Positions 2,571-15,964 of a DNA stretch of 64,000 nt are shown piece by piece. Each line of letters starts with the position of its first letter. Within the stretch, counting starts at the first letter, position 1. Source of the stretch: Candidatus Hodarchaeota archaeon. GTDB taxonomy: Archaea; Asgardarchaeota; Lokiarchaeia; Sigyniarchaeales; SOKP01. The translations under genes and the position numbers were made by a program. The stretch is taken from assembly GCA_048887225.1 (NCBI GenBank), contig JBHLJY010000007.1:32001-96000 (forward strand), written 5' to 3'. Under the pieces are notes generated by a model, which did no database searches, had not been told where the DNA came from, and saw only the letters and a program-made list of their open reading frames with translations.

Positions 2571-3661
2571 TATTTTTCAACTCCATTACTTGCTTTTATA
2601 ATATAAGCTATCCCCTCGGCTTCTTCAATTGCGTTTTTGAGAGGAATTTCATTTCCTGGGAGAGAGAGCGCAAACATAGTACCTCCAAATCCAGATCCGT
2701 TAATTTTTGCTCCCAAAGCGCCTGATTCTAAGCATTTTTTTACCATAAGTTCTATTTTTTCAGTATAAATTCCAATATTATTTTTTAATTGAAAGTGGTG
2801 CATATTCAATAGGTTGCCTAATTGTTGATAAAAATCTTTTACTTTAGTATCTTCGCATAGATAATCTTTAAAAATCAATTTTTTTGCTTTTACAGTTATA
2901 TCTCTATTTATAAGGTTTCCCACGACTTTTTTTTGGTATTTTTTTTCAAGATTAGATAAAAATGGTTTGACCTCTTCTAAAGATGTTTTATACTGATCAA
3001 ATGTAGGTAGAATTTCTTTTAAAGTTTTGAAGGCATTAAGTGCCAAATTTTTAACTTTCATAAGATTTTCTACTGTATCTTTCTTTTCTAACGAATTACC
3101 TAACACAAAACCATCAATTTTCTCTTTAATAGATACAATATTTGGTCTAGGAAATTTAGGCTCCAGATAAACTAAATTCCCATAAATTGAGCAATAATGG
3201 TCCATCATTCCTCCAGCTTCGTTAAATTCTTTTACTTCAGTATTGTAGCCTTCAATAGCTAATTTGGATTTTTTATTAATCGTTACACCACTAATTTGGT
3301 TAAGAAAATATAGCCAAGCAATTACTAAAGCAGAAGAACTGGCAACCCCAGCGTTAATTGGTATATCTCCTGTTATTTTTATTTTATATCCTTTATTAAA
3401 TTTAATTCCTTTTCTTAAAAACAGATTATATCCACTTTTCAAATAATCTCTTTTTGAATCGTATTCTAGTTCTCTATTATTTAATGAGATTTCTAAAGTT
3501 TCATCTAAATCGGGAAGCTCTATAATAAATTGTGTACTCGATATTCTTTCTGCTTCTAAATAAATATATCTTGATATAGCCATTGCTATTACGGGAAGAT
3601 TTAAATAATCCTGATGTTCTCCAAATAAACAAATTCGTCCAGGAGACTGAATTTTGATCAT
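2567..3661 (-). CDS. GHMP-family sugar kinase (galactokinase-like)
   Basis: PGRICLFGEHQDY, IPINAGVASSSA and GAKINGSGFGG motifs. Confidence 0.9.
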   Translation of the reverse strand: MIKIQSPGRICLFGEHQDYLNLPVIAMAISRYIYLEAERISSTQFIIELPDLDETLEISLNNRELEYDSKRDYLKSGYNLFLRKGIKFNKGYKIKITGDIPINAGVASSSALVIAWLYFLNQISGVTINKKSKLAIEGYNTEVKEFNEAGGMMDHYCSIYGNLVYLEPKFPRPNIVSIKEKIDGFVLGNSLEKKDTVENLMKVKNLALNAFKTLKEILPTFDQYKTSLEEVKPFLSNLEKKYQKKVVGNLINRDITVKAKKLIFKDYLCEDTKVKDFYQQLGNLLNMHHFQLKNNIGIYTEKIELMVKKCLESGALGAKINGSGFGGTMFALSLPGNEIPLKNAIEEAEGIAYIIKASNGVEKY

Positions 3662-4064: not shown

Positions 4065-5966
4065 TTGAATGATATAGAAACCAAGCTTAAGAAATTAAAT
4101 CAAAAATTAAAGGAATCCGAAGAAAAATATAAGAATTTAGTTGAAAAATCAGGACTGAGCATAATTATTTTTGATAAAGATGGAAAATCTCTGTTAGTAA
4201 ATAAATTAACTGCAGATAATTTAGGTAAAAAGCCAGAAGATTTAATTGGAAAATCTATATTTGAATTTCTTCCAAAAGATAAAGCAAAAAAATATTTAAA
4301 AATGATTAGAGATGTCATTGAGTCTAGAAAAGCGATTACAACTGAGGACATATTTAAATTACCAGACGGTATTAGAACTTTTTTTATAAATATACAACCA
4401 ATCTTCGATATAAATGGTAATGTTACAAGTACTCAGAATATTTCTATAGAGATTACCAAGCGCAAGAAAATCGAACAGAAATTAAAAGAATCTGAAACAA
4501 TATTCAGAGCTATTGCTGACCAATCTTTAATAGCTTTATGTATTATACAAAATAATTTAATAAAATATTGTAATCAACGATTGGGTGATATAACTGGATA
4601 TAATATCGAAGAAATGATGAATTGGACACCTGAAGAATTAATTAAATCAATTCTTCCAGCCTATCGTGACTTTGTTATAGAACAAATGAAAAAAAGACAA
4701 GAGGGTTCAGATGATGCGATAGATCAATACGAACTTCAATTCTTTAGAAAAAATGGTGAAAAAATTTGGATTGAGATTATTTCAAAGGGAATTAATTATA
4801 AAGGTGCACCTGCTGATTTAGGTATAATCCTTGATATTACCGAGCGCAAGAGAATCGAACAGATATTAAAAGATTCTGAAAAAAAATATAAAATTGAGCG
4901 GGATAATCTAATTAATATTTTAAATTCTATGGAAGATGGGGTTTACATCATCGACCAAAAACATAACCTTGAATATGCTAATCCAATACTTATAAAAGAT
5001 TTTGGTCCATTCGAAGGCAAGAAATGTTATTATTATTTTCATGGTCGTAAAGAAGTATGTCCTTTATGTAAAAATAAAGAGGTTTTTACTGGAAAAACAA
5101 TTAAATGGGAGTGGTTTTCCTCTGAATATCAAAAAACTTATGACCTAGTTGAAACTCCTGTAAAAAATCCTGATGGTAGCCAATCAAAATTAGTAATTTT
5201 TCACGATATAACTGAACGTAAAAAGATTGAACAAGAATTAATAAAACAAAATATTGAATTAACAAAATTAGATAGAGCTAAAAATAATTTTATAACAATG
5301 GCTACTCACGAATTAAAGACCCCTCTAATTTCTATTGCTGGATATACAGAGTACATTCTTACTAAGCATAAAGAAAATTTATCTATTGACATTAAAAATG
5401 ATTTATTGATCGTGCAAAGAAACATTGATCGTTTGCAGAATTTGATCAACCAACTATTAGATGTTATAAAAATGGAATCTGATAAAATGGAATTAAATTT
5501 AGAATTAATTAATATAACTGATATCATGTATAGATGTTTAAATGAATTGAGTTATTTAATTAAAGAAAAAGATCATGAAATGATTTTAAATATAGATAAT
5601 GAGATATTTTTAAACATTGATCCTGATCGAATTTTTCAAGTCTTTTCCAATCTAATTTCTAATGCGGCTAAATTTACTCCAAAAGGAGGCAGAATTGAAA
5701 TTTCTGCCAAAAAAGAGGACTCTCGATATTTGTTTGAGGTTAAGGATAATGGTATTGGATTATCCAAAAATGAACTTAAATGTGTGTTTGAAAAATTTGA
5801 AACCGTTAAACAAGATAAAAACGAAAATTTTCCCACAGGTACTGGACTTGGATTATACCTATCTAAAGGACTCGTAAAAGCCCATGGAGGAAAAATGTGG
5901 GGCACTTCAGAAGGTAGAAATAAGGGTTCTACATTTTACTTTTCTCTGCCTATCATTAAGAAATAG
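4065..5966 (+). CDS. Cytoplasmic multi-PAS sensor histidine kinase
   Basis: Three PAS/PAC units ending in DITERK-like motifs; H-box ATHELKTPL; N-box NLISNAAKF; G-boxes DNGIG and GTGLGL. Confidence 0.92.
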   Translation: MNDIETKLKKLNQKLKESEEKYKNLVEKSGLSIIIFDKDGKSLLVNKLTADNLGKKPEDLIGKSIFEFLPKDKAKKYLKMIRDVIESRKAITTEDIFKLPDGIRTFFINIQPIFDINGNVTSTQNISIEITKRKKIEQKLKESETIFRAIADQSLIALCIIQNNLIKYCNQRLGDITGYNIEEMMNWTPEELIKSILPAYRDFVIEQMKKRQEGSDDAIDQYELQFFRKNGEKIWIEIISKGINYKGAPADLGIILDITERKRIEQILKDSEKKYKIERDNLINILNSMEDGVYIIDQKHNLEYANPILIKDFGPFEGKKCYYYFHGRKEVCPLCKNKEVFTGKTIKWEWFSSEYQKTYDLVETPVKNPDGSQSKLVIFHDITERKKIEQELIKQNIELTKLDRAKNNFITMATHELKTPLISIAGYTEYILTKHKENLSIDIKNDLLIVQRNIDRLQNLINQLLDVIKMESDKMELNLELINITDIMYRCLNELSYLIKEKDHEMILNIDNEIFLNIDPDRIFQVFSNLISNAAKFTPKGGRIEISAKKEDSRYLFEVKDNGIGLSKNELKCVFEKFETVKQDKNENFPTGTGLGLYLSKGLVKAHGGKMWGTSEGRNKGSTFYFSLPIIKK

Positions 5967-11300: not shown

Positions 11301-11921
11301 TTAATCGAATTTTATTTTATCATCAATACACTCTTTTAACTCAGATATTCTAAGTGTTAATGAAATGTCTCCTCTTGTTTTTTCAATAATATTTCTTCCC
11401 ACATCAATTTTATGCCTTAAATCTTGAGTTATTCCTGAAGGGTAATCTAAAGAAAATAAGTTTGTATAAATTTCGTCCATATCTTCTAAAATATTATTTA
11501 AATCATCAATTCGAGAATTCCTAATGTTATCTAATGCGTACCGCCGTAATTCTCCTATTACATCTGCTAAGCCTAATAAATAATGAAGAGAGTTTACATT
11601 TAATTCATTAGAGGTTGGCAAGGATAAATTATTGACAATTGAATAAAAGCAAACTGCTTCTGCATATTCTTGTTCAGGAGTTTTTAAGTATTTAAAAAAA
11701 ATTCCAGGATTTTTATTGACCAAATTTGTGAGAGCTTTCAATTTTAATTTAACTTGGTCAATTTTTTCTTTATAAATATTAAATTCCTTTCTATGAATTG
11801 ATTTAATCGCAATGCTACAATTTCGTATTATTTTGCGAGAAATTCTTAATATCTCCTCTCGATCTTTATCAAGTTCATCTAAACCTTTCGTAATTTCTGA
11901 AAAAATATTTTTAAGATTCAT
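11301..11921 (-). CDS. Translin/TRAX-family RNA-binding nuclease
   Basis: REEILRISR, QEYAEA, YLLGLADVIGELRR, LRHKID motifs. Confidence 0.88.
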   Translation of the reverse strand: MNLKNIFSEITKGLDELDKDREEILRISRKIIRNCSIAIKSIHRKEFNIYKEKIDQVKLKLKALTNLVNKNPGIFFKYLKTPEQEYAEAVCFYSIVNNLSLPTSNELNVNSLHYLLGLADVIGELRRYALDNIRNSRIDDLNNILEDMDEIYTNLFSLDYPSGITQDLRHKIDVGRNIIEKTRGDISLTLRISELKECIDDKIKFD

Positions 11922-12045
11922 ATGAATAACTAGATAACTTGGAAATTATTAAAATTTTTAATTAATATAATTAATTAACAAAAGTAAGTAAAATATTTAG
12001 AATTTATCAAAAATATAGTTTAACAAATAAACTAAAGAGATAATC

Positions 12046-12114
12046 GTGAAAATCTTATTAATTCATTCCGATGGAGTGTTCCTTATCTCGAATATATTTA
12101 TAAGCGATTTTTAA
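12046..12114 (+). pseudogene. Duplicated 5' fragment of thrS (first 11 codons, then unrelated sequence)
   Basis: GTG AAA ATC TTA TTA ATT CAT TCC GAT GGA GTG (MKILLIHSDGV) versus thrS 13907-13939 (MKMLLIHSDGV); 28/33 nt identical. Confidence 0.8.
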
Positions 12115-13906
12115 CCTTAATCTTCTTTATAAATCAATTATTTTATTAGGTGTTCACATTTTTAATATTAATTTAATATTACATAACCCTGTGTAATGTT
12201 TTCTCTAAAGTAGTAAGAAGTAAAATTATATATAGACATAATCATAAAATATATTCGGTGGTTAAGGTGTTTGAAAAACCACAAAAAAAATTATTTTGTT
12301 CAAATCCGAATATATGCCAGAAGAAAAAAAAAAGAAAACAGAATGTGCAGATGATCCTTTTTTATTAAGTAAAGCTAACGAAATTTGTAATGCGAGCGAC
12401 CATATTGATGAATATCCAAGTTCCCCAATCCAAACCTCTAAAGATTTTATTGAGGGTACCCCTTATATTAACTTGGGAAAACCAATTGAGGATTTAACAC
12501 CGAAGGAATTCAAGGAATCTTATAAGGGCGTATATTCTAACCTCTTTAAGTTCGTAAAAGATCGCCATAATATCGATTTAGGTATCATGACTCGAGATGG
12601 TTTAACTAAGTTAATAAGAAAAATGAATTATTATGGTATAATTTATAATTTTACTCAGATAAAAGATGGAGAAGGGAACGATATTCATTATGGCCCCAGT
12701 TGGGTAAAAGATGATAAAAAAGTTATCGCTGGATTTCATCGAATTGGTCGAGCAATTAATATAGAGGATCGGAAAACTTTATATAAGAGAGAAAAAACTG
12801 GAAAACATTTTGAGAATACATTCCAAAAATTAGGTCCTAGAGCATTTAATTTTAATTTTTTAGCGGTTTGTAAAAATGAACAAGAATATAAAGCTACTGA
12901 ATATTTTTGGCAATTATATTTTAATAGAGAGGAAAATGAAGATGGTTATGATTTACGAAATAATGGCAATTTTAATAATAGATTAGGAAGTATGTATGAT
13001 AATATTTCAAATCTAATTTTACCCAAATATTATTTAGTAAGAGATATCTTATATGGCTTAGACAAATTCGAATTAGATGAGAGATATAAAAATTTAAAGG
13101 GTATAATCTCCGTTAAACAAGCATTAATACATAATTTTGGGATAGAGTCTATTTTTAAAATAAGGGCTATGTTAGTCGCTCCTTTATTAGATTATAATCT
13201 TAAAAGAGGGTTAACCGAGCAAGAAAATATTGAAAAATTGATAGAGTCTGGTTTTGGAATGTTTGATAAAAATCTAATACAGGAGAGGAGTAGAGAGTAT
13301 GGTCCATCCTCAACAAGGACAAATCCCAAGAATCTTTTTCAAAGAATACTCGTATATACGTACGGTCCCCCTAGAATCCGACCTAGTAGAGTCTTTACTC
13401 ATTATGAGCAACTTAGAAAAGAGAATTTCTTTGAACCATTCATAGAGTATCTTAAAGATTTAAATATTGCCGAAATAATTGGTGAATCACAAAACGATCA
13501 AAATACGCTTTCTATTGTAGATTATTTATTTGAAAAATGTCTTTCACCTACTTATATAGTTAAATATTTAGGATACAAAGGGAGTGAGGCAGAATTATTA
13601 ATAAATAAAATAAACAATTACTTGAATAGGAGATGGAGACCTTTGATAGAGCAGTTTTCTTGGGATAAACTCAGATTATTCCTTAAATTCCATCCATTAA
13701 TAATTTCCACACATAAAGTATACTCTAAATATTTATAAAAAGTTTATAGATGATATTGCATTTCATTTTAGAGTTAATTATGATTCAATTGCTCAAATAA
13801 ACAGAATCCTTACTTAATACTTTTTTATTTAAAATTCAATATTAAAAAAATTTATCATTTATATTAGATTCATAGGATATATATAATTATTTGGTGTTTG
13901 TTGCAT
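12079..13906 (+). mobile_element. Putative selfish insertion (nuclease cassette) between the two copies of the thrS 5' end
   Basis: Bounded by the imperfect 33-nt direct repeat 12046-12078 / 13907-13939; carries only the GIY-YIG-like gene. Confidence 0.5.
12296..13738 (+). CDS. Divergent GIY-YIG endonuclease-like protein (homing-endonuclease-like), 480 aa
   Basis: YGIIY...RIGRA...R...HFENTFQKLGPRAFNF..L..C....E...TEYFW...GYDL resembles intron-type GIY-YIG catalytic domains; long unrecognised C-terminus. Confidence 0.6.
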   Translation: MFKSEYMPEEKKKKTECADDPFLLSKANEICNASDHIDEYPSSPIQTSKDFIEGTPYINLGKPIEDLTPKEFKESYKGVYSNLFKFVKDRHNIDLGIMTRDGLTKLIRKMNYYGIIYNFTQIKDGEGNDIHYGPSWVKDDKKVIAGFHRIGRAINIEDRKTLYKREKTGKHFENTFQKLGPRAFNFNFLAVCKNEQEYKATEYFWQLYFNREENEDGYDLRNNGNFNNRLGSMYDNISNLILPKYYLVRDILYGLDKFELDERYKNLKGIISVKQALIHNFGIESIFKIRAMLVAPLLDYNLKRGLTEQENIEKLIESGFGMFDKNLIQERSREYGPSSTRTNPKNLFQRILVYTYGPPRIRPSRVFTHYEQLRKENFFEPFIEYLKDLNIAEIIGESQNDQNTLSIVDYLFEKCLSPTYIVKYLGYKGSEAELLINKINNYLNRRWRPLIEQFSWDKLRLFLKFHPLIISTHKVYSKYL

Positions 13907-15964
13907 ATGAAAATGTTATTAATTCATTCAGATGGCGTAGAAGTAAGGAAACACAAAGAGGCAACAAGCAATCCTCAAGAGTTTTCTGAAGATTTCATAA
14001 AATTGGATGGTTTAATACTTATAGCTTATGTTTCTATCGAAGACCAAGATACATATGACACAGATATAATAGCTAAACAAGGAGCTGATGTTATAGAAGA
14101 AGCAATTTTCCTTATTACAGGGTTCCCTGAAAAAATACGTCAAAGGAATGAAGAAATAAGAGAACATAACCGAAAAGTAGAAGAAGGTAAAATAAAAGGA
14201 AAACCAAGAAAATATCTTGAATTAATCGCTGGAAGGGATAAATACATTGTTGACAAAGTATTAGTTTATCCATGGGCACATTTAAGTAAATTTTTAAGTC
14301 AAGATCCAAATGCGGCGGAAGTATGCCCAAAAATAGCTAAAATCTTAGAATCTAAAGGAATTAAGTCAAAATTCTCTCCATTTGGATGGTATAAATCTTT
14401 TAAAATTAATTGTATCGGGCATGAAGTAGCTGAAATGTATAGAGATGTAAAGCTTTATATTCAGCCAGAAGAACATTTGCAAAAGGCTCAATTTTTTGTA
14501 ATTACTCCAGAAGGAAAAGAAATAAAAATTCAAATAGATGACAATAAAGAAGTTTTGCCAATAAAAGAAGTCGATGAGGATTTTAATTTATTTATTAAAT
14601 CAGAATTAGGTGTTAGAAGAGCTGATCTCGGAGAAGAACCACCGCATATTAAGATAATGAAAAAGTTTGAGCTAATTGATTTCGAAAAAAATTCTGATAG
14701 TGGGAACTTGCGTTGGTATCCTAAGGGTGTAATTATGAAGAACCTTATCAAAAATTATTTAGATGAGAAGTTAATTGATTTTGGAGCAATTCTAGTTGAT
14801 ACACCTATTATGTATACCGTAAAAAGCAAGAAATTAACTGCCCAAACTGCGAGATTTCCAGCCAGAACATATTGGGTTGAATCAGGAAATAATCGATTTT
14901 TACTAAGATTTGCTGGGGATTTCCTCCAATTTGATATGTTTAGTGGAATGAACTTGAAACCTTCCTATTTCCCTCTAAAATTATATGAATATGAGCAGTA
15001 TGATTTCAGGAGGGAGAAAGAAGGAGAATTAACTGGTTTAAGGCGATTAAGAGGCTTTGTCATGCCAGATTTTCATACTCTGTGCAAGGATTTGGATTCA
15101 TCTGTTGAAGAATTTAAGAAACAATATGACTTAGATCAACAAGTTGCCGAGGATTTAGGAATTAAAGATCACTTAATTTTCAGGACAACACACGATTTTT
15201 ACAAAAAAAATAAAGGTTGGATTAAGGAATTAGTAAAAAAAGAAAACAAACCTGCTTTATTGGAACTCTGGGATGATAGGTATTATTATTTTGTTTTGAA
15301 GTTTGAAAGAGGAGTACTTTCCGCTCAAGATAAAAGCGGTACTCTCGCAACAATTCAAATTGATGTTGAAAGTACTTTAGAATATTTAGAAGATAAAGAT
15401 GGCAAAAAGAGACAAAAATATAATATTTACTTTACTGATGATGATGGGATTAAAAAGCATCCAATTATTCTTCACAATTCACCTTCAGGAGGTTTGGAGA
15501 GAGTGTTATGGGGGCTAATTGAAACAGCAATCAGAGAAAAGGATAAAATAGTTCCAGGGTTTAAAACGTGGTTATCTCCAATCCAAATAAGAGTAATAAC
15601 TGTCAGTAATAATCAGAACGAATACGCTGGAAAAATAATGCAAATTCTTAATGATCAAGGTTATAGAGCGGATTTCGATGATCGCGAAGAAAAAATAGGA
15701 AAAAAAATAAGACTAGCAGAAATTGAATGGATTCCTTATATAGTAATTGTAGGTAAAACAGAACAAGAGAATGAAACTATTTCTCTTCGTAAAAGATTAA
15801 TCGGACAACCGTTTGGCCCAAAAGGGAATACATCAGAGCAGTTAAAGAATATTCAACTAGAAAAGTTTTTAGAACTCCTTGAAAAAGATACGAAAGGATT
15901 TCCTAAATACAAGCTTCCGATACCATTTAGAAGGACTTCAACTAAAATATTCTTTCGTCGCTAG
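13907..15964 (+). CDS. thrS: Threonyl-tRNA synthetase, archaeal type with N-terminal editing domain
   Basis: MKMLLIHSD, VYPWAHLS, PFGWYKSFKINCIGH, FRRE..GEL.GL.RLR.F.MPD.HT, GGLER. Confidence 0.96.
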   Translation: MKMLLIHSDGVEVRKHKEATSNPQEFSEDFIKLDGLILIAYVSIEDQDTYDTDIIAKQGADVIEEAIFLITGFPEKIRQRNEEIREHNRKVEEGKIKGKPRKYLELIAGRDKYIVDKVLVYPWAHLSKFLSQDPNAAEVCPKIAKILESKGIKSKFSPFGWYKSFKINCIGHEVAEMYRDVKLYIQPEEHLQKAQFFVITPEGKEIKIQIDDNKEVLPIKEVDEDFNLFIKSELGVRRADLGEEPPHIKIMKKFELIDFEKNSDSGNLRWYPKGVIMKNLIKNYLDEKLIDFGAILVDTPIMYTVKSKKLTAQTARFPARTYWVESGNNRFLLRFAGDFLQFDMFSGMNLKPSYFPLKLYEYEQYDFRREKEGELTGLRRLRGFVMPDFHTLCKDLDSSVEEFKKQYDLDQQVAEDLGIKDHLIFRTTHDFYKKNKGWIKELVKKENKPALLELWDDRYYYFVLKFERGVLSAQDKSGTLATIQIDVESTLEYLEDKDGKKRQKYNIYFTDDDGIKKHPIILHNSPSGGLERVLWGLIETAIREKDKIVPGFKTWLSPIQIRVITVSNNQNEYAGKIMQILNDQGYRADFDDREEKIGKKIRLAEIEWIPYIVIVGKTEQENETISLRKRLIGQPFGPKGNTSEQLKNIQLEKFLELLEKDTKGFPKYKLPIPFRRTSTKIFFRR

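What the first reader, a model, noticed from the sequence alone, without database searches (positions are those of the whole stretch)
12046..13939. Nuclease cassette inserted at the thrS 5' end, leaving a recoded duplicate of the first 11 codons
Seen: 12046-12078 (GTGAAAATCTTATTAATTCATTCCGATGGAGTG) matches the thrS start 13907-13939 (ATGAAAATGTTATTAATTCATTCAGATGGCGTA) at 28/33 nt. Four of the five differences are at third codon positions (three synonymous, one Ile/Met) and the fifth is GTG versus ATG. Both copies therefore diverged under coding constraint and are not a fresh target-site duplication. Only one gene, the GIY-YIG-like ORF, lies between them; there is no integrase or transposase. 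Inference: a selfish element entered an essential gene, orphaned the native 5' end, and supplied a replacement promoter and N-terminus from a related lineage. Recoding could make the repaired allele immune to cleavage, as in intronless homing by free-standing phage endonucleases. I do not know of this being described for an Asgard chromosome.
Basis: partly seen in the sequence, partly recalled or inferred. Interest (0 to 1): 0.8.

Follow-up and report, generated by a model that had tools for sequence, protein, structure and literature searches.

The report
Homing-nuclease cassette replacing the thrS start
A selfish DNA-cutting-enzyme gene has lodged in the first codons of the essential threonyl-tRNA synthetase gene of a Loki-type Asgard archaeon and keeps it intact by bringing its own upstream region and start codon, a splicing-free way of spreading known from fungal mitochondria and yeast that I found no paper describing for archaeal chromosomes.

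Summary
The repeat is real (28/33 nt). It brackets a 1,861-bp insertion that a sister genome lacks (thrS 96.5% identical) and that 79 of 80 related thrS loci show no sign of. Both copies are hybrids joined in a 14-bp core (nt 10-23). The three synonymous differences sit in the orphan copy. The working thrS is native from nt 10; the element supplies only the upstream region, ATG and Ile3Met. The ORF is a GIY-YIG nuclease (best fold match I-TevI; YIG is RIG) with HTH-like domains, from a Lokiarchaeia family. Relatives sit beside duplicated ends of rps27ae, fwdA and a Rag-like GTPase (working end recoded); one moved laterally between species at the same site. A second genome carries an unrelated nuclease-like gene at the same thrS codons, with a 375-nt foreign tract. 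Best reading: a splicing-free homing element like fungal mitochondrial mORFs and yeast WHO elements, here replacing a 5' end. Cleavage is untested; recombinase-driven integration is not excluded for this locus. This scan noted similar cassettes before on other archaeal DNA (unchecked notes).

The parts
11301..11921 (-). Host translin gene (left flank, divergent from thrS)
   Evidence: Pfam Translin E 1.8e-13; 95.8% nt identical to G002; 83-178 bp from thrS in 71 of 76 relatives where adjacent
11922..12045 (+). Native translin-thrS spacer, now leading into the orphan start
   Evidence: 122/124 nt identical to the 124-bp spacer of the empty allele
12046..12068 (+). Orphaned native thrS start, nt 1-23; opens a 22-codon ORF ending at 12114
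   Evidence: Identical to the empty allele at nt 2-23; ORF
12055..12068 (+). 14-bp core (nt 10-23), left copy: the left junction lies here
   Evidence: Identical in left copy, right copy and empty allele; joint with 14 shared letters
12069..12078 (+). Element-borne remnant of a foreign thrS start (codons 8-11, three synonymous differences); also closes a weak hairpin 12064-12078
   Evidence: 7/10 match to the empty allele, all mismatches at third positions; hairpin, no folding signal
12296..13738 (+). GIY-YIG (GIIY-RIG) nuclease ORF, 480 aa from TTG (474 from ATG 12314): disordered 1-50, nuclease about 113-230, AraC-like double HTH 241-380, HTH 401-469
12258..12368 (+). Short overlapping upstream frame with an A10 run at 12324-12333; could join the main ORF by slippage (speculative)
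   Evidence: no indel in the run contig
13739..13906 (+). Element-supplied upstream region of thrS (AT-rich TATA-like runs about 13858-13887; GGTG 10-13 nt before ATG); promoter function inferred
   Evidence: No similarity to the native spacer; no clear source among 400 Asgard genomes
13907..13915 (+). Element-supplied codons 1-3 of the working thrS (ATG start; Met at codon 3)
   Evidence: Differs from the empty allele at nt 1 and 9; Met3 in 1 of 80 relatives
13916..13929 (+). 14-bp core, right copy: the right junction
13907..15964 (+). Intact archaeal-type threonyl-tRNA synthetase gene (685 aa), native from nt 10
   Evidence: Pfam tRNA-Thr_ED, tRNA-synt_2b, HGTP_anticodon; 96.5% nt identical to G002

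Best explanation
A splicing-free homing element of the mORF/WHO type, in a 5'-end version. SHOWN: 1,861 bp are inserted with both junctions in thrS nt 10-23; the element consists of a remnant of a foreign thrS start, a GIY-YIG/HTH gene, a new upstream region and codons 1-3; thrS is intact. INFERRED: the nuclease cut the empty allele in or next to codons 4-8. The break was repaired from donor DNA of another Lokiarchaeia lineage, with the left end pairing on the element's left thrS remnant and the right end on its replacement start. A cut inside the core explains why both junctions fall in the same 14 bp. The filled allele escapes re-cutting because a long site is split: the left copy lacks everything beyond nt 23, and the right copy lacks the native upstream DNA and carries C9->G (Ile3Met). 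No RNA or protein splicing is needed, because the element's upstream region drives thrS.
For: Hybrid anatomy against the empty allele. Nuclease fold and motifs: best match I-TevI catalytic domain, Z 6.8, rmsd 2.9, 85 of 92 residues, with GIY-YIG enzymes such as T4 EndoII and UvrC next; Y117, G151, R159, E202 nearly invariant. The YIG Tyr is replaced by Arg; active Hpy188I has Lys there (PMC3045582). Relatives form site-specific clades beside conserved genes. Duplicated gene ends flank them at rps27ae, fwdA and a Rag-like GTPase, where the working end has 7 synonymous changes including the stop and the native end is displaced. At rps27ae most of the nuclease part is 97-99% identical between two species whose neighbouring kae1 is 92% identical and whose sister species are empty; the spacer beyond the right copy is donor-type. 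In JAZGEW010000086.1 an unrelated phage-HEG-like ORF (DUF723/DUF4379/CapR clusters, score 0.95) sits at thrS nt 26 with a foreign tract of about 375 nt in the working gene. A single crossover cannot make that tract.
Against: No cleavage or expression data. At this locus no conversion tract extends beyond the 33 bp, so a single crossover of a circle gives the same sequence. The working copy differs from the empty site at only two coding bases, so immunity is not evident. Only one genome holds this element at thrS, and no donor allele was found. Most other family loci show no detectable duplication (many are contig-truncated). Fold Z is under 8, and this protein has no Pfam hit of its own.
Confidence: 0.68

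Rival explanations
1. Integrase-type event: a 1.86-kb circle (or the remnant of a larger integrative element) with an attP resembling the thrS start integrated by one crossover in the 14-bp core, using a tyrosine recombinase in trans. The nuclease is cargo.
For: Both junctions lie in one core with about 10 bp of partial similarity on each side, like attB x attP. The host has three tyrosine recombinase genes. A 2.6-kb circularising element nested in an Atabeyarchaeia ICE is on record, with no integrase among its listed genes (PMC11529989).
Against: No integrase in the element or in the Pfam neighbour lists of homologue loci. Family members use unrelated target sequences. Two related loci show two-crossover conversion tracts. 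The source-run contig shows no circle or empty joint (contigs drop rare forms).
Confidence: 0.15
2. Passive arrival: foreign DNA recombined in at microhomology without targeted cleavage. The nuclease aims elsewhere, is inactive, or is a toxin or defence module, as the giant N-terminal fusions and small partner ORFs of relatives might suggest.
For: Relatives are fused to 700-2,460-aa proteins and often carry a homologous 90-aa coiled-coil neighbour. Most family loci lack a visible duplication. A possible 5' frameshift at the A10 run.
Against: Two unrelated nuclease-like genes sit at the same thrS codons, each leaving an orphan start. There are site-specific clades and lateral transfer at a cognate site. 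The catalytic residues are intact.
Confidence: 0.12
3. A plain 33-bp target duplication followed by drift, or a fold-back (quasi-palindrome) at the left junction that only looks like synonymous recoding.
For: All three left-copy changes (nt 24, 30, 33) improve a 6-bp hairpin at 12064-12078.
Against: Three changes in 10 nt at the 3.5% divergence to the sister genome has P about 0.004, and all three at third positions about 0.03. Fold-back predicts A at nt 31, but the coding G is kept. The hairpin is no more stable than shuffles. The three codons occur naturally in relatives.
Confidence: 0.04
4. Assembly chimera of two strains.
For: The genome is a metagenome bin (4% contamination); filled and empty alleles occur in samples of one study.
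Against: One contig at even depth 29 spans both junctions with no differences, and both flanks match the same sister species. The run may be the source sample, so this is a re-assembly, not an independent sample.
Confidence: 0.01

Closest known systems
Mobile endonuclease ORFs (mORFs) of fungal mitochondria carrying a foreign gene terminus: Allomyces macrogynus atp6; Glomus atp6, atp9 (GIY-YIG), cox2, nad3 (PMC3630166); free GIY-YIG genes at atp9, some duplicated with its N-terminus (PMC7487136)
   Same: Free-standing endonuclease between two copies of a gene end; the displaced copy matches the sister species; the replacement is of foreign origin; no splicing; GIY-YIG members exist.
   Different: Archaeal chromosome rather than mitochondrion; 5' end with a new upstream region; here only 9 coding nt are replaced; new nuclease family (GIIY-RIG with AraC-like and HTH domains).
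WHO elements of Torulaspora and Lachancea yeasts at FBA1 (PMC7282813)
   Same: Chromosomal homing element using a duplicated host-gene fragment as second homology arm; host gene stays functional without splicing; occasional retargeting to other genes.
   Different: WHO proteins are intein-derived LAGLIDADG/zinc-finger fusions, replace the 3' end, build clusters and were shown to cut allele-specifically; none of this is shown or seen here.
Phage GIY-YIG homing endonucleases: I-TevI (intron-encoded) and the free-standing T4 Seg family (intronless homing; PMC1564403)
   Same: N-terminal GIY-YIG catalytic domain plus C-terminal DNA-binding modules; placed next to essential genes.
   Different: No intron; Seg genes do not duplicate a target fragment (own knowledge); YIG Tyr is Arg and motif-E Asn is Asp; no relative found in viral contigs.
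Integrative elements that restore their target gene through attP (e.g. Atabeyarchaeia Yucahu-i and mini-Yucahu-i, PMC11529989)
   Same: Short direct repeat with a common core; hybrid left and right ends; target restored.
   Different: No integrase, replication or cargo genes; related loci show conversion tracts; no circle seen.

Membership tests
GIY-YIG nuclease superfamily | GIY-YIG fold | tested here: met
   Domain model pTM 0.81; best match I-TevI Z 6.8, rmsd 2.9, 85/92 aligned, followed by EndoII, UvrC, Eco29kI; Pfam GIY-YIG in 6 of 14 homologues, best E 3.7e-4. Z is under 8 and Foldseek gave no E<0.001.
GIY-YIG nuclease superfamily | Catalytic Tyr (GIY), Arg and Glu | tested here: met
   Y117, R159, E202 nearly invariant; assignment by motif spacing to I-TevI (own knowledge)
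GIY-YIG nuclease superfamily | YIG tyrosine and motif-E asparagine | tested here: inconclusive
   Arg149 and Asp219 family-wide; Lys for Tyr (Hpy188I, PMC3045582) and Asp for Asn (PMC1564403) have precedent, Arg was not found in the papers read
mORF/WHO-type splicing-free homing elements | Endonuclease gene between two copies of a host-gene terminus, host gene intact | tested here: met
mORF/WHO-type splicing-free homing elements | Empty cognate alleles in relatives; displaced copy is the native one | tested here: met
   G002 and run X9 empty; orphan nt 2-23 native; 71 of 76 spacers of normal length
mORF/WHO-type splicing-free homing elements | Working gene carries a diverged replacement terminus that confers resistance | tested here: inconclusive
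   Only nt 1, nt 9 and upstream DNA differ at this locus; extensive replacement at L092 and L243; resistance untested
mORF/WHO-type splicing-free homing elements | Enzyme cleaves the empty allele and drives gene conversion | not testable with these tools
   Only indirect signs: lateral transfer at a cognate site and conversion tracts at related loci
mORF/WHO-type splicing-free homing elements | No intron or intein | tested here: met
   No Rfam match to E 1; thrS ORF complete with own start; ORF separated from thrS by a stop and 168 bp. RT-PCR not possible.
Tyrosine-recombinase integrative elements | Encoded integrase next to an att site | tested here: not met
   host recombinase genes lie elsewhere
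Tyrosine-recombinase integrative elements | Hybrid attL/attR with common core | tested here: met
Tyrosine-recombinase integrative elements | Excised circular form | tested here: inconclusive
   No back-joint in contigs of four runs; contigs drop rare forms

The most novel reading that the evidence does not exclude
Lokiarchaeia chromosomes carry an undescribed guild of splicing-free homing elements. A GIY-RIG nuclease family, and unrelated nucleases competing for the same sites, repeatedly overwrite the 5' or 3' ends of conserved genes (thrS, rps27ae, fwdA, a Rag-like GTPase) with DNA from other species. This would be direct evidence of break-driven interspecies gene conversion in Asgard archaea, with thrS codons 4-9 as a contested hotspot.
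Probability: 0.55. Interest if true: 0.75.

Novelty: new variant of a known kind. Interest (0 to 1): 0.62.

Why it matters
Homing needs a filled and an empty allele in one cell and repair by recombination. Its footprints in Lokiarchaeia therefore imply DNA exchange and gene conversion between species of the closest prokaryotic relatives of eukaryotes, and each locus records a donor and a recipient. [quoted passage not shown] The element defines its own test, because the predicted cut lies within 14 bp and empty and filled alleles are both on record. The family also offers new long-site nucleases, and it warns that ends of marker genes in Asgard genomes can be foreign.

Tried and rejected
Pfam, PDB sequence search and Foldseek on the full protein gave nothing; VIA-align and the domain-only model did. 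No paralogue in the own genome. No relatives in viral contigs. No donor allele: an exact 25-mer of the element-type start was absent from GTDB contigs, and the insert had only short AT-rich or ORF-internal hits in 400 Asgard genomes; the nearest natural start matches 31/33 (L267). Other genomes with two thrS-start pattern hits were contig overlaps, second bin copies or chance. No tRNA targets next to close homologues. No Rfam RNA. The hairpin explanation is weak. The sigma-70 scan does not suit archaeal promoters. No RNA holder listed. Runs X2 and X3 hold short identical pieces of the ORF at low depth, which show no junction. The L087 fwdA duplicate ends at an N gap and the L121 one at a contig end with an internal repeat, so both are weaker examples. 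The repeat scans found nothing clear at most of about 36 loci, and the gene-end scan missed rps27ae because its ORF is interrupted. Literature searches for Asgard/Lokiarchaeia/Promethearchaeota with GIY-YIG or homing endonuclease found no description; the library lacks most subscription papers.
Full report
Observation. Their 14-bp identical core (nt 10-23) occurs twice in the window against 0.02 expected and nowhere else in the genome. The flanks are translin (minus strand) and an intact archaeal-type thrS. Relatives are titled mostly Promethearchaeota/Promethearchaeia, i.e. Lokiarchaeia.

It is an insertion, and a recent one. In the sister genome G002 (thrS 96.5%, translin 95.8% nt identity) the two genes are 124 bp apart. 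Among 80 GTDB thrS loci, 76 have translin adjacent and 71 of these have a spacer of 83-178 bp. Only this genome of 161 has two nearby matches to my start pattern (the second case below falls outside that pattern). A contig of the probable source run spans the whole insertion at even depth, and another sample of the same study carries the empty joint, skipping 1,861 bp with 14 shared letters. A chimera is very unlikely.

The empty allele changes the reading. The left copy equals it at nt 2-23 and differs at 24, 30 and 33. The right, working copy differs at nt 1 and 9 and equals it from nt 10 on. Both copies are therefore hybrids joined in the core. The element consists of 10 nt of foreign thrS codons (12069-12078), a spacer, the ORF, a new upstream region and codons 1-3. 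The synonymous differences are in the orphan, not in the repaired gene. They are unlikely to be drift after a plain duplication (P about 0.004 for three changes in 10 nt at the sister divergence, times 0.03 for all third positions). They most likely come from an earlier host. They also close a weak hairpin, but a fold-back would not keep the G at nt 31. Met at codon 3 is rare (1 of 80) and is the only internal change that could protect the working copy; that is inference.

The protein. P0001 has no Pfam hit, but 6 of 14 homologues hit GIY-YIG weakly. The domain model matches the I-TevI catalytic domain best (Z 6.8, rmsd 2.9, 85/92), with other GIY-YIG enzymes next. The rest resembles an AraC-like double HTH and an HTH. 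The Atlas neighbours with a family are GIY-YIG and GIY-YIG+HTH clusters, many of them phage, with scores under 0.9. Y117, G151, R159 and E202 are conserved, while YIG reads RIG and motif-E Asn is Asp across the family. Hpy188I is active with Lys at the YIG position, and the GIY tyrosine is the proposed general base (PMC3045582). Activity is plausible but untested. The family is small (30 proteins at E<=0.001) and patchy (26 of 161 genomes of the class), and I found none in viral contigs.

What relatives do. They sit singly beside conserved genes and group by site in a tree: rps27ae/kae1, a zinc-finger gene, fwdA, an aminoacyl-tRNA-synthetase-like gene. (i) L092 (distant member; 58% identity over 45 catalytic residues) lies after a Gtr1/RagA-type GTPase. 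The working end has seven synonymous changes including the stop codon, and the native end lies beyond the element and runs into the native spacer of two empty relatives. (ii) L081/L082 have a 25-27-bp duplicate of the rps27ae end. Most of the nuclease part is 97-99% identical between G152 and G116, whose kae1 is 92% identical, while their sister species G141 and G135 are empty. The spacer after the right copy is foreign. This is lateral transfer to a cognate site with co-conversion. (iii) L121 and L087 have displaced fwdA 3' parts at 89% and 81% identity (both near assembly breaks). Most other loci show no clear duplication.

A second invader of the same site. In JAZGEW010000086.1 (L243) an insertion of about 1.1 kb leaves an orphan thrS start matching the empty sister L266 for 26 nt. 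Its ORF is unrelated to P0001 and resembles phage proteins with DUF723/DUF4379/CapR zinc fingers; PMC10055350 describes these as DNA-binding domains of homing endonucleases. The working thrS there is 68-82% identical to the sister over the first 375 nt or so, and mostly 90-100% after that. A short orphan with a long foreign tract needs two exchange points, as in break repair, and not one crossover.

Mechanism. Shown: insertion, junctions, hybrid copies, intact thrS, nuclease fold, and family behaviour at other sites. Inferred: the enzyme cuts the empty allele in or near codons 4-8; repair copies the element from a foreign donor using the two short thrS arms; the split site and the replaced nt 1-9 and upstream DNA stop re-cutting; the element's upstream region drives thrS. 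I put this at 0.68. For this locus alone, recombinase-driven integration of a small circle gives the same sequence (0.15; the host has three tyrosine recombinases). Passive capture of an off-target or inactive nuclease gets 0.12.

Comparison. It works like fungal mitochondrial mORFs, which carry a foreign gene terminus and displace the native one (PMC3630166; GIY-YIG genes at atp9 in PMC7487136). It also works like yeast WHO elements, which home using a duplicated host fragment and need no splicing (PMC7282813). It differs in host (archaeal chromosome), polarity (5' end plus upstream region), the minimal replaced stretch and the nuclease family. Published Asgard mobile-element studies list one homing-endonuclease-like gene beside a 16S rRNA gene and PacI-like viral proteins, not this design, and my searches found no description. 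Earlier unchecked notes of this scan report similar cassettes, mostly LAGLIDADG, in DPANN, Bathyarchaeia and another Loki-type genome. I read them after reaching this view and do not count them as support.

Verdict. Real feature; first reading partly supported; new variant of a known kind; interest 0.62.

Noticed in passing
L243:2866-4375 (JAZGEW010000086.1): Independent insertion at the thrS start with an unrelated zinc-finger/nuclease-like ORF (2882-3574, possibly truncated) and a foreign tract of about 375 nt in the working thrS.
   Followed up: yes
L082:7824-7853 (approx.); also L081, L193, L169-L171: A 30-nt insert with in-frame stops in rps27ae that folds like a bulge-helix-bulge intron. 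It co-occurs with the nuclease element in three genomes and without it in three others; synonymous changes cluster around it. Possible collaborative homing.
   Followed up: partly
G113:C20, G088:C7, G123:C46, G145:C17, G146:C47: fwdA-like genes with one internal stop or a break, perhaps the same kind of mini-intron.
   Followed up: no
L175:3-3383: Large acidic-repeat ORF facing the fwdA 3' end, where GIY-YIG members sit in other genomes; its C-terminus has two LAGLIDADG-like motifs by eye (Pfam E 0.044 only).
   Followed up: partly
L042:1060-1323, L044:1612-1887, L046:9375-9656, L117:7524-7838: Small coiled-coil ORFs of about 90 aa beside family members are homologous to one another; absent from the thrS element; function unknown.
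   Followed up: partly
L117:1-7383, L081:9587-13498, L084, L091, L093, L195: The nuclease module forms the C-terminus of 700-2,460-aa proteins, one with a ubiquitin-like domain just before it (Pfam E 7e-6).
   Followed up: partly
window 12256-12368: GGTGG 6 nt before GTG 12267 opens a short frame that would join the nuclease ORF by a one-base slip in the A10 run at 12324-12333; possible expression control or damage.
   Followed up: no
L249:2269-3912: A bacterial-type threonyl-tRNA synthetase gene lies between translin and the archaeal-type thrS.
   Followed up: no
L174:12684-13358 and L176:3820-4461: Second, 3'-only fwdA copies (from about residue 350) in genomes that also have a full gene on another contig.
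   Followed up: partly
window about 4400-4850: A second near-identical repeat pair (at least 28/33) 384 bp apart turned up in the control scan.
   Followed up: no
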